Position numbers and translations under genes: made by a program
From: Naegleria gruberi
Lineage: Eukaryota
Reading direction: 5' to 3' (one strand)
Assembly: GCA_000004985.1 (NCBI GenBank)
Contig: GG739574.1
Length of the DNA stretch: 1,081 nucleotides
Notes under the pieces: model-generated
What the model saw: only the letters and a program-made list of their open reading frames with translations
Databases searched by the model: none
What the model was told of the DNA's origin: nothing
Shown: piece by piece, positions 1 through 1,081 of the stretch
Position numbering within the stretch: the first letter of the stretch is position 1
Layout of the letters: each line of letters begins with the position of its first letter

Positions 1-535
1 TAATGCTCTACCAATTGAATCAATTCAGTTAAAAAAGCTTCTTGATATTTTTTTAATTGAATTGAATTATTTAACATTGTTTTTAATTGTTTTGATATTT
101 GATTAACATATTCTCTTTCTTTATCATGACTATTATATTTAAATTTTAATTTTTTAAAATTAAATAAAAATCCACCACCACTACTACTACTTCCACTACT
201 ACTACTATTAGATTTTTCATTTGTATTATTATTAGTTGTATTATTATTTAAATTATTTAATAAATTTGGATCAATAATTGAATATTGTGTTTTCATTGTA
301 TTATTAAATTCTTCTTCGCTACCTGAAATAAAATCCCAAAATAAATAACTTTTACATAAAATAGGATGTCTAGCACAAAATGATAAAAATAAAGAAAGAT
401 ATTTTCCTTTTAATATTTTAGGATCTGTACTTGTTTGTTCATATAATTTATCTATATTTGTTGTTAATAAATCTTTAGGTGGTATTAAACATCCAATACA
501 ATCTATTTTTAAATTTTCATATAACCATTCAAAAT
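1..535 (-). CDS. Downstream exon, partial at the window edge, of the same PX-domain protein. It encodes (D)FEWLYENLKIDCIGCLIPPKDLLTTNIDKLYEQTSTDPKILKGKYLSLFLSFCARHPILCKSYLFWDFISGSEEEFNNTMKTQYSIIDPNLLNNLNNNTTNNNTNEKSNSSSSGSSSSSGGGFLFNFKKLKFKYNSHDKKEREYVNQISKQLKTMLNNSIQLKKYQEAFLTELIQLVEH, followed by a partial codon TA-.
   Basis: The open frame is continuous from 533 down to base 1, about 178 codons, with no stop. The other two minus-strand frames terminate immediately (TTT TGA at 534-529; ATT TTG ... TAA at 535-509). The codon bias matches exon A. The frame phase agrees with the exon A / intron junction. The final partial codon is 'TA', so a stop (TAA/TAG) or a Tyr codon lies just outside the window. 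Confidence 0.85.
172..207 (-). repeat. Coding trinucleotide microsatellite. The plus strand reads (CCA)3(CTA)3...(CTA)4, which is (TGG)/(AGT)n on the coding strand and encodes SSSSGSSSSSGGG.
   Basis: The run 'ccaccaccactactactacttccactactactacta' is directly visible. It lies in frame within exon B, inside the N/T/S/G low-complexity linker that follows the PX domain. Confidence 0.8.
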
Positions 536-651
536 CTATTATTATTATTATATGATTATTATATTATTATATTTAAATTATAATATTATAAAATATAATT
601 ATTATTTTAAATTAAAATTAAATTAAAAAATTAAAAAATTTAAAAACATAC
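536..651 (-). other. Spliceosomal intron, 116 nt, phase 1. On the minus strand it reads GTATGTTTTTAAATTTTTTAATTTTTTAATTT...CATATAATAATAATAATAG.
   Basis: On the minus strand the intron starts with a consensus donor GTATGT (plus-strand ACATAC at 646-651). It ends with the only AG dinucleotide in the whole interval (plus-strand CT at 536-537). It is about 97% A+T, versus about 75% in the flanking exons. Reading through from exon A hits TAA after 10 codons. Removing exactly 651..536 joins G(652)+AT(535-534) into GAT (Asp) and reconnects the only open frame on each side. The length and composition are typical of Dictyostelium introns. Confidence 0.8.
621..646 (-). repeat. Imperfect tandem T-rich octamer (TTTTTTAA)x3, located in the intron immediately downstream of the 5' splice site.
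   Basis: The plus strand reads 'aattaaaaaattaaaaaatttaaaaa'. On the minus strand this is GTATGT|TTTTAAATTTTTTAATTTTTTAATT. It is simple-sequence slippage typical of AT-rich introns and no function is implied. Confidence 0.4.
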
Positions 652-1081
652 CCTTCATTTTTCTACTAACAGTTAAACCAGTCTTATTAAATAAAGGATG
701 ATCCTTATAAATAGGATTATCTAATAATTGATCTTGTTCTTCATTAATATTAACAGTTGTAATTATAGTAAATAAAGGAGTACTATATATATTTAATTGA
801 TCATATATTACTTCTATATTAGTTGTTGTAAATGATGATAATTCAACAAATGGATATTTAGTTTGTGATAAATGAATACTTCCTTCTTCTTCTATTAATT
901 GTTGTTCTTGTTCTTCACCATTATTATTATTACCATTATTATTACCATTTCCATCATTATTATCATTATTATCTAATGGTTGTTGTTCTTGTTCTTGTTC
1001 ATCTTCTTGTTGGTGATCTTCTACTTGTTCTTCTACTTGTTGATTATTATTTAAAGGATCTTGATTAACTTGTTGATATTG
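652..1081 (-). CDS. Upstream exon, 5'-partial, of a PX-domain (sorting-nexin-like) protein. It encodes QYQQVNQDPLNNNQQVEEQVEDHQQEDEQEQEQQPLDNNDNNDGNGNNNGNNNNGEEQEQQLIEEEGSIHLSQTKYPFVELSSFTTTNIEVIYDQLNIYSTPLFTIITTVNINEEQDQLLDNPIYKDHPLFNKTGLTVSRKMK plus the first base (G) of a split Asp codon.
   Basis: I reverse-complemented and translated this by hand. Reading from base 1081 downward there is a continuous open frame of 143 codons, in DNA where the other frames hit TAA/TAG/TGA within a few codons. Third codon positions are strongly A/T-biased, as in Dictyostelium (TTA Leu, AAT Asn, CAA Gln, GAA Glu, GGT Gly). The frame stays open to the window edge, so the start codon lies outside the window. 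The exon ends exactly at a GTATGT donor. Confidence 0.85.
918..973 (-). repeat. Imperfect (ATT)n / (AAT)n coding microsatellite. It encodes the Asn/Asp/Gly run DNNDNNDGNGNNNGNNNNG.
   Basis: The plus strand reads 'ccattattattattaccattattattaccatttccatcattattatcattattatc'. On the coding strand this is AAT/GGT/GAT codon repeats in frame within exon A. Confidence 0.75.
981..1013 (-). repeat. Hexanucleotide (CTTGTT)n repeat, which is (CAAGAA)n on the coding strand and encodes (QE)n. A second shorter copy lies at about 899-917.
   Basis: The plus strand reads 'tgttgttcttgttcttgttcatcttcttgttgg'. It translates in frame on the minus strand as QQEDEQEQEQQ, part of the acidic Q/E-rich N-terminal low-complexity region. 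Confidence 0.7.

What the first reader, a model, noticed from the sequence alone, without database searches (positions are those of the whole stretch)
471..670. Divergent phosphoinositide-binding residues in the PX domain
Canonical PtdIns3P-binding PX domains use the RR[YF] triplet. The first Arg contacts the 3-phosphate and the aromatic residue stacks on the inositol ring. They also use a second basic Arg in the following helix. Here the motif is R-K-M-K-DF. The first Arg is kept, the second Arg is replaced by Lys and the aromatic residue by Met. The proline loop is IPPK rather than PPLP. The helix-2 basic position reads 'KILKGKYL' (Lys rather than Arg). This may indicate non-canonical or weak lipid specificity, as seen in some PX domains that bind PI(4,5)P2 or PI(3,4)P2. 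This is inference from motif comparison only.
Basis: inference. Interest (0 to 1): 0.5.

Follow-up and report, generated by a model that had tools for sequence, protein, structure and literature searches.

The report
Non-canonical PX pocket, Naegleria sorting nexin
The window encodes part of a Naegleria PX-BAR sorting nexin whose lipid-binding pocket has lost the usual arginine-tyrosine clamp for the endosomal lipid PtdIns3P; this kind of divergence is already well known in other sorting nexins, so the finding is real but ordinary.

Summary

Two corrections:
- KILKGKYL lies at 419..396, outside the stated 471-670.
- The Arg that binds the 3-phosphate is the second Arg of RR[YF] (p40phox R58), not the first. 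The retained R140 is therefore not a lipid ligand. The true Arg-Tyr pair is K141-M142, exactly at the modelled beta3/alpha1 junction.

Three of the four required PtdIns3P residues are replaced, and the fourth (the loop Lys) depends on the alignment. Orthologues keep RKM (N. lovaniensis, Willaertia) or RRL. Full-length orthologues are PX + Vps5-type BAR proteins.

The domain is therefore predicted not to be a stereospecific PtdIns3P binder. It may use a conserved lysine cluster and the alpha1 Tyr149 secondary site. No lipid binding was tested. I class it as a new member of a known kind, of low-to-moderate interest.

The parts
652..1081 (-). Exon 1, open at the contig end. It encodes the N/Q/E-rich low-complexity N-terminal region, PX strands beta1-beta3, and R140-K141-M142-K143 plus the first base of D144.
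   Evidence: Translation and splice reconstruction. Identical to NCBI protein P0001.
536..651 (-). Intron of 116 nt, GTATGT...ATAG, phase 1, 3.4% GC, containing many stop codons.
   Evidence: An intron at the same position and phase is present in orthologue L001.
1..535 (-). Exon 2, open at the contig end. It encodes the rest of the PX domain, a Ser/Asn-rich linker, and the first ~58 residues of the BAR domain.
   Evidence: The read-through frame matches the Willaertia, N. lovaniensis and L001 orthologues.
294..832 (-). PX domain, aa 84-224 of the 321-aa fragment, interrupted by the intron. Order of elements: beta1, beta2, beta3, alpha1, Pro loop, alpha2, alpha3/4. The Pfam core is aa 130-214 (694..324).
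656..664 (-). R140-K141-M142, the counterpart of RR[YF]. R140 is the non-ligand first Arg. K141 replaces the 3-phosphate Arg (p40phox R58, SNX3 R70). M142 replaces the ring-stacking Tyr (Y59, Y71).
   Evidence: Literature.
519..521 (-). Y149 in helix alpha1, aligned with SNX1 Y194, which is the His/Tyr of the secondary (non-canonical) phosphoinositide site. K153 (509..507) aligns with SNX1 K200.
   Evidence: Alignments. SNX1 Y194/K196/K200 mutagenesis in PMC6449406. The family has Y/Y/H/Y at this position.
474..485 (-). I161-P-P-K164, a truncated version of the PsiPxxPxK loop motif. The second Pro is missing. K164 either replaces the 1-phosphate Lys across a 3-residue deletion, or L167 occupies that column.
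   Evidence: Gapped alignments against the gap-free MAFFT run.
396..419 (-). K183-ILKGKY-L190 at the start of helix alpha2. K186 (410..408) occupies the position of the alpha2 Arg (p40phox R105, SNX3 R118). This element lies outside the finding's stated coordinates.
   Evidence: K-G-K-Y-L is invariant in the four close family members.
177..293 (-). Low-complexity Asn/Ser/Thr-rich linker between the PX and BAR domains.
   Evidence: Poorly conserved in the family alignment.
3..176 (-). Start of the Vps5-type BAR domain (GGFLFNFKKLKFKY...LIQLVEH), cut off by the end of the contig.
   Evidence: The orthologue P0004 has a weak Pfam Vps5 match to profile positions 11-85 at the equivalent residues. 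The BAR-region profile hits Arabidopsis SNX1 BAR at E 6e-4. Distant relatives are PX+Vps5 proteins.

Best explanation
The region encodes the PX domain of a divergent PX-BAR sorting nexin. Clear members were found only in Heterolobosea (Naegleria, Willaertia) and a few unassigned environmental eukaryotes.

Shown:
- The fold and register are those of a PX domain.
- The canonical PtdIns3P clamp is dismantled. Lys141 replaces the 3-phosphate Arg. Met142 replaces the ring-stacking Tyr. Lys186 replaces the alpha2 Arg.
- The PsiPxxPxK loop is reduced to IPPK.

Inferred:
- The domain does not bind PtdIns3P stereospecifically or with high affinity.
- Membrane association of the full protein comes mainly from BAR-domain dimerisation and curvature sensing.
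- A conserved lysine-rich surface (K141, K143, K164, K183, K186, K188) adds lower-specificity electrostatic binding.
- The alpha1 Tyr149/Lys153 secondary site may also contribute. In human SNX1 and other group III PX domains this site binds di- and tri-phosphorylated phosphoinositides.
For: - Register: identical in phmmer, MAFFT and hhalign. K141/M142 fall on the modelled beta3/alpha1 junction.
- The rule that all four residues are strictly required comes from PMC6449406.
- Conservation: RKM in N. gruberi, N. lovaniensis and W. magna, RRL in L001. IPPK and KGKYL are invariant. The K/R and M/L exchanges suggest selection for charge and hydrophobicity rather than for the Arg-Tyr geometry.
- More distant members show other degenerate combinations: L004 has R-G-L with LPPR, and L002 has RRY with PPLPLQ and Lys in alpha2.
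- PX-BAR architecture.
- The secondary-site Tyr/His is conserved in the family.
Against: - No lipid-binding data exist for this protein.
- Both Arg-to-Lys changes keep the charge, and the basic positions are conserved. This could mean the pocket still binds a phosphoinositide, possibly PtdIns3P weakly.
- The family alignment has only four close sequences.
- I could not inspect side-chain geometry, because model coordinates are not returned.
- The model's alignment was dominated by canonical PX-BAR sequences.
- The Chandra rule was derived from human PX domains only.
- The secondary site is only partly matched: N151 sits where SNX1 has K196.
Confidence: 0.6

Rival explanations
1. The pocket is still a working PtdIns3P site. 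The Arg-to-Lys changes are conservative and Met supplies a hydrophobic platform. Weak monomeric affinity is raised by avidity in the BAR dimer or oligomer, so the protein behaves as an ordinary endosomal Vps5-like sorting nexin.
For: - Positive charge is retained at positions 141, 164 and 186, and these are invariant or K/R in the family.
- L001 has Arg at position 141.
- The nearest canonical relatives are Vps5-type PX-BARs.
Against: - In the human survey, every PX domain lacking any one of the four residues failed to bind PtdIns3P (PMC6449406).
- The Tyr is lost in all close members.
- The PsiPxxPxK loop is truncated.
- Distant member L004 has Gly at the Arg position, so the position is not under strict constraint.
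Confidence: 0.2
2. The PX domain has been repurposed as a protein-binding (cargo or partner) module, like human SNX5/SNX6/SNX32. The protein would act as the non-lipid-binding subunit of a heterodimer with a canonical Vps5-type SNX-BAR.
For: - With the PX family profile, SNX5 and SNX32 are the best PDB sequence matches (E 2e-4 and 2.5e-3).
- SNX5 shows the same pattern: first Arg kept, second Arg and Tyr lost (VTRQHEDF).
- SNX5's loss of the pocket and gain of cargo binding are documented (PMC5348129; PMC6449406).
Against: - The defining SNX5 helix-turn-helix insert is absent. There are 21 residues between the loop Lys and the alpha2 basic position, against 44 in SNX5 and 22 in SNX3.
- The 16-17-residue inserts in N. 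lovaniensis and W. magna at that site are Asn/Ser/Thr low complexity.
- The pocket lysines are conserved here, unlike the unconserved SNX5 pocket.
- I did not establish whether Naegleria has a canonical Vps5 partner.
Confidence: 0.12
3. The apparent divergence is an artefact, arising from a wrong splice or register, a pseudogene on a tiny contig, or contamination.
For: - The contig is only 1081 bp at 19.8% GC.
- The deposited gene model has a doubtful 3' end.
Against: - The splice is canonical, conserved in position and phase in L001, and used by the NCBI model.
- Both exons have an open frame to the contig ends.
- The PX region is 53-79% identical to three orthologues, with the motifs conserved.
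- Three alignment methods agree on the register.
Confidence: 0.02

Closest known systems
Vps5 / SNX1-SNX2-type PX-BAR sorting nexins (Pfam PF00787 + PF09325)
   Same: - Same architecture: a disordered N-terminus, then PX, then a BAR domain.
- The only significant distant relatives in 1.84 billion representatives are PX+Vps5 proteins, with matches spanning both domains.
- The BAR-region profile hits Arabidopsis SNX1 (E 6e-4) and C. thermophilum Vps5.
- The alpha1 Tyr149 aligns with SNX1 Y194 of the secondary lipid site.
   Different: - SNX1 and Vps5 keep RR[YF], PPxPxK and the alpha2 Arg. This family has RKM, IPPK and Lys.
- The Pfam Vps5 score of the orthologue is below the cut-off (16.8 against 27 bits).
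- There is an extra ~15-20-residue insert between beta2 and beta3.
SNX5 / SNX6 / SNX32 PX domains
   Same: - They are SNX-BAR proteins whose PX pocket lacks the Arg-Tyr pair while keeping the first Arg (SNX5 VTRQHEDF against VSRKMKDF).
- They are the best PDB sequence match to the family PX profile.
- They are a documented precedent for a PX domain that does not bind PtdIns3P.
   Different: - This family has no helix-turn-helix extension between the Pro loop and alpha2.
- The pocket here stays lysine-rich and conserved.
- There is no evidence for a cargo-binding groove.
Group III human PX domains of Chandra et al. 2019 (bind di- and tri-phosphorylated phosphoinositides through a secondary site but not PtdIns3P)
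   Same: - This domain lacks at least one canonical residue.
- It has a Tyr (His in Willaertia) in alpha1, with a nearby basic residue (K153, or R in L001), matching the described secondary-site signature.
   Different: - The match is only partial: N151 sits where SNX1 has K196.
- Binding is untested.
- The classification was built on human proteins.
Canonical PtdIns3P-binding PX domains (p40phox, SNX3/Grd19, Vam7, SNX9)
   Different: Three of the four ligand residues are substituted, and the fourth is ambiguous.

Membership tests
PX domain (Pfam PF00787) | Significant match to the family profile above the curated cut-off | tested here: met
   29.2 bits against a cut-off of 21.6, E 1.4e-6, aa 130-214. 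Orthologues score 27.7 and 24.6 bits. hhalign against canonical PX domains gives 98.7%.
PX domain (Pfam PF00787) | Three-stranded beta sheet followed by a helical subdomain, with a Pro-rich loop between alpha1 and alpha2 | tested here: met
Canonical PtdIns3P-binding PX (Chandra group II) | Arg immediately before the aromatic residue at the beta3/alpha1 junction (p40phox R58) | tested here: not met
   K141 occupies this position in N. gruberi, N. lovaniensis and W. magna. L001 has R and L004 has G.
Canonical PtdIns3P-binding PX (Chandra group II) | Tyr/Phe that stacks on the inositol ring (p40phox Y59) | tested here: not met
   M142 occupies this position (M/M/M/L/L in the family).
Canonical PtdIns3P-binding PX (Chandra group II) | Lys of the PsiPxxPxK loop (p40phox K92) | tested here: inconclusive
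   The motif is IPPK. K164 aligns with the Lys only if a 3-residue gap is opened. In the gap-free alignment L167 occupies the column.
Canonical PtdIns3P-binding PX (Chandra group II) | Arg in helix alpha2 (p40phox R105) | tested here: not met
   K186 occupies this position and is invariant in the four close members.
Canonical PtdIns3P-binding PX (Chandra group II) | Specific binding to PtdIns3P membranes | not testable with these tools
   This requires liposome pelleting or ITC on recombinant protein.
SNX-BAR (PX + Vps5-type BAR) | BAR domain directly C-terminal to the PX domain | tested here: met
   The window holds only the first ~58 residues. In full-length orthologues the C-terminal ~230-300 residues match Vps5 BAR: Pfam is weak (16.8 bits), the profile hits AtSNX1 residues 180-370 at E 6e-4, and PX+Vps5 proteins align across both domains.
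SNX-BAR (PX + Vps5-type BAR) | Dimerisation and membrane tubulation | not testable with these tools
SNX5/SNX6/SNX32 subfamily | [quoted passage not shown] | tested here: not met
   There are 21 residues between the loop Lys and the alpha2 basic position, against 44 in SNX5. The inserts in the two orthologues are low complexity.
SNX5/SNX6/SNX32 subfamily | Degenerate PtdIns3P pocket | tested here: met
   SNX5 has R-Q-H where this protein has R-K-M.
Group III PX (secondary-site binders) | His/Tyr in alpha1 with adjacent basic residues toward the Pro loop | tested here: inconclusive
   Y149 aligns with SNX1 Y194 and K153 with K200, but N151 sits at the K196 position. The family has Y/Y/H/Y, with K/K/E/R at position 153.

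The most novel reading that the evidence does not exclude
This could be a previously undescribed, lineage-restricted SNX-BAR family: Heterolobosea plus a few unassigned environmental eukaryotes, with only four clear members among 1.84 billion representatives. In this reading the PtdIns3P clamp was dismantled stepwise (RRY to RRL, RKM or RGL; PPLPxK to PP[KR]; alpha2 Arg to Lys) while an all-lysine pocket was conserved. It would be an independent, non-opisthokont counterpart of the SNX5/Vps17-type 'second subunit', either with a different lipid specificity or acting as a non-PtdIns3P partner of a canonical Vps5.
Probability: 0.2. Interest if true: 0.45.

Novelty: new member of a known kind. Interest (0 to 1): 0.25.

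Why it matters
PX domains are used to predict endosomal (PtdIns3P) targeting in genome annotation. This example shows that a Pfam PX hit in a protist SNX-BAR should not be read as PtdIns3P binding. Naegleria membrane trafficking is little studied, and I found no paper describing its sorting nexins. A divergent SNX-BAR with a lysine-only pocket could point to lineage-specific endosomal sorting.

Non-canonical PX pockets are nevertheless common. Only 12 of 39 human PX domains tested are PtdIns3P-specific (PMC6449406). The general principle is therefore not new.

Tried and rejected
- I first guessed a Dictyostelium origin from the 19.8% GC. This was rejected: the window is 100% identical to a N. 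gruberi contig.
- The bacterial-code plus-strand ORFs (479-583 and 865-1068) are antisense low-complexity artefacts.
- phmmer matched aa 280-314 to the extreme C-terminus of the SNX1 BAR, which could have meant a truncated BAR. I rejected this. Orthologues continue for another 190-300 residues, and Pfam places this segment at Vps5 profile positions 11-85, the BAR start.
- The first AlphaFold run, with a 3-sequence alignment, gave pLDDT 39.7 and was discarded.
- Subfamily placement with the full-length profile against PDB was inconclusive: SNX5 PX E 0.008 and SNX1 E 0.025.
- SNX5 membership was rejected because the helical insert is absent.
- The AFDB Foldseek library was unavailable.
- The Koumandou 2011 retromer-evolution paper is not held.
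- The Naegleria fowleri genome paper and the kinetoplastid PX survey say nothing about Naegleria sorting nexins.
- Source organisms of the canonical distant hits include a diplonemid, Trypanosoma rangeli, Ceratiomyxa and Auxenochlorella, but no heterolobosean. Whether Naegleria also has a canonical Vps5 was therefore not determined.
- I ran no further search on that question, because a word-indexed search without a taxon filter was unlikely to surface it.

Full report
**What the window is.** The 1081-bp window (19.8% GC) is 100% identical to a whole Naegleria gruberi contig that encodes the 'predicted protein, partial' P0001. The gene lies on the minus strand. Exon 1 is 1081..652. A 116-nt GTATGT...ATAG intron of 3.4% GC lies at 651..536. 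Exon 2 is 535..1. Both exons run open to the contig ends. GC drops to 2-7% across 501-650. An orthologous gene on metagenome contig L001 has an intron at the same codon position and phase. The NCBI model uses the same junction. The spliced fragment is 321 aa.

**Checking the observation.** After splicing, the protein reads S139-R140-K141-M142-K143-D144-F145 (window 667..531, with D144 split by the intron), I161-P-P-K164 (485..474) and K183-I-L-K186-G-K-Y-L190 (419..396). The third lies outside the stated 471-670.

The PX assignment is secure on several lines:
- Pfam PF00787 gives E 1.4e-6, 29.2 bits against a cut-off of 21.6.
- hhalign of the family against canonical PX domains gives 98.7% probability, E 3e-16.
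- An AlphaFold model built from a 14-sequence alignment has mean pLDDT 78.2 and pTM 0.75, with beta1-beta2-beta3-alpha1-loop-alpha2-alpha3 topology.
- All significant Foldseek hits are PX domains.
- An earlier model from a 3-sequence alignment (pLDDT 39.7) was discarded.

**Register and pocket residues.** I verified the human SNX3 and p40phox PX sequences against PDB chains. In them RRY starts at residues 69 and 57, the loop Lys is K95/K92, and the alpha2 Arg is R118/R105.

Three independent methods give one register:
- phmmer against SNX9 and SNX1;
- MAFFT with SNX3, p40phox, SNX1, SNX9, SNX5 and 11 canonical SNX-BARs;
- hhalign.

In that register:
- R140 matches the first Arg.
- K141 matches SNX3 R70 and p40phox R58.
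- M142 matches Y71 and Y59.
- K186 matches R118 and R105.

In the model, beta3 ends at K141 and alpha1 begins at M142. This is exactly the 'sequential Arg and Tyr pair at the junction between beta3 and alpha1' that Chandra et al. 2019 define as critical (PMC6449406).

The loop Lys is ambiguous. Gapped alignments make K164 equivalent to K95 across a 3-residue deletion. A gap-free MAFFT alignment puts L167 in that column.

The four required residues are p40phox Arg58, Tyr59, Lys92 and Arg105 (citing Bravo et al. 2001). Arg58 is the second Arg of RRY. [quoted passage not shown] SNX5 keeps the first Arg but lacks a lipid pocket (VTRQHEDF). Retention of R140 therefore says nothing about lipid binding. 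The true 3-phosphate ligand and the stacking aromatic are both replaced.

**Family and context.** An exhaustive HMMER search of 1.84 billion representatives found only four strong matches: N. gruberi, N. lovaniensis P0004 (659 aa), Willaertia magna P0002 (437 aa), and the metagenome fragment P0003/L001.
- N. lovaniensis and W. magna keep SRKMKDF, IPPK and KGKYL.
- L001 has SRRLKDF.
- The 17 weaker hits (E 1e-9 to 1e-3) are mostly PX + Vps5-BAR proteins aligned across both domains. They include discoban ones, from Trypanosoma rangeli and a diplonemid.
- The orthologue's C-terminal half gives a weak Pfam Vps5 hit.
- A BAR-region profile hits Arabidopsis SNX1 BAR at E 6e-4.

The window therefore encodes the PX domain, a linker and the first ~58 residues of the BAR domain of a divergent SNX-BAR.

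More distant family members reconstructed from contigs show other degenerate combinations:
- L004 has R-G-L, LLPPR and an alpha2 Arg.
- L002 has RRY, IPPLPLQ and an alpha2 Lys.

This suggests relaxed or stepwise loss of the canonical pocket in this lineage.

**Mechanism.**
- Shown: three of the four canonical residues are substituted and the Pro loop is truncated.
- Established knowledge: in the human survey, all PtdIns3P binders have all four residues and all non-binders lack at least one.
- Inference: this PX domain is not a stereospecific PtdIns3P reader.

The K/R exchange at position 141 and the M/L exchange at 142, together with invariant K143, K164, K183, K186 and K188, argue that charge and hydrophobicity are selected rather than the Arg-Tyr geometry. 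This is consistent with lower-specificity anionic-lipid binding.

Y149 (His in Willaertia) aligns with SNX1 Y194, and K153 aligns with K200. Both are residues of the secondary site whose mutation abolishes SNX1 binding to di- and tri-phosphoinositides. The match is only partial, because N151 sits at the K196 position. The BAR domain presumably supplies dimerisation and most of the membrane avidity.

I put about 0.6 on this reading. I put 0.2 on retained weak PtdIns3P binding, about 0.1 on an SNX5-like protein-binding role, and about 0.02 on artefact.

**Novelty and verdict.** Non-canonical PX pockets are common and well described, so this is a new member of a known kind. Interest is 0.25.

The most novel reading still open is a lineage-restricted SNX-BAR family that independently evolved a non-PtdIns3P PX domain, analogous to SNX5/Vps17 (probability about 0.2). 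I could not determine whether Naegleria also encodes a canonical Vps5 partner. No literature on Naegleria sorting nexins was found.

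Noticed in passing
window 83-179 (minus strand): The deposited N. gruberi gene model (P0001) leaves the open frame after ...GSSSSG (aa 263, window 179-177) and splices to a short terminal exon, VMIKKENMLIKYQNN* (window 130..83). The unspliced read-through frame (GGFLFNFKKLKFKYNSHDKEREY...) matches the Willaertia, N. lovaniensis and L001 orthologues. The annotated 3' end therefore looks wrong and hides the start of the BAR domain.
   Followed up: partly
window 695-751 (minus strand; aa 111-129): There is a ~15-20-residue insert (NINEEQDQLLDNPIY...) between beta2 and the conserved HPLF segment before beta3, absent from canonical PX domains in the alignment. 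The model predicts short helices there with pLDDT ~65. Its length varies among orthologues.
   Followed up: no
window 489-500 (minus strand; aa 156-159): A C-x-G-C motif (CIGC) lies immediately before IPPK. It is conserved in the four close family members (DC[IV]GCL, ECFGCL, ECIGCL), and L004 keeps only the second Cys. It is not a feature of the canonical PX domains aligned here. Its function is unknown.
   Followed up: no
P0004 aa ~247-265 and P0002 aa ~115-133 (orthologues); the equivalent site in the window is between aa 177 and 178 (window ~437-432): N. lovaniensis and W. magna carry a 16-17-residue Asn/Ser/Thr-rich insert between the Pro loop and alpha2. This is the same site as the SNX5 helical hairpin. 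N. gruberi and L001 lack it. The insert probably inflates the SNX5 profile match.
   Followed up: partly
L002 (Logan SRR29754122) 520-760; L004 (GCA_037189345.1) 1290-1600: More distant members of the same divergent SNX-BAR family, from unidentified eukaryotes, show different pocket states. L002 has RRY, IPPLPLQ and KGRLL. L004 has R-G-L, LLPPR and RNIFL. This hints at stepwise degeneration of the pocket. The source organisms were not identified.
   Followed up: partly
window 887-1081 and 177-293 (minus strand): There is a long low-complexity Gln/Glu/Asn/Asp-rich N-terminal region, and an Asn/Ser/Thr-rich linker between the PX and BAR domains. Both appear as codon-level tandem repeats. This is typical of the disordered N-termini of Vps5-type nexins, but here it is extremely AT-rich.
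   Followed up: no
window 3-122 (minus strand; aa 280-314): The first BAR helix (HDKEREYVNQISKQLKTMLNNSIQLKKYQEAFLTE) aligns with the last helix of human and mouse SNX1 (residues 483-517; domain E 0.36-1.2). It does not align with SNX1's first BAR helix. This is probably a chance coiled-coil resemblance.
   Followed up: partly
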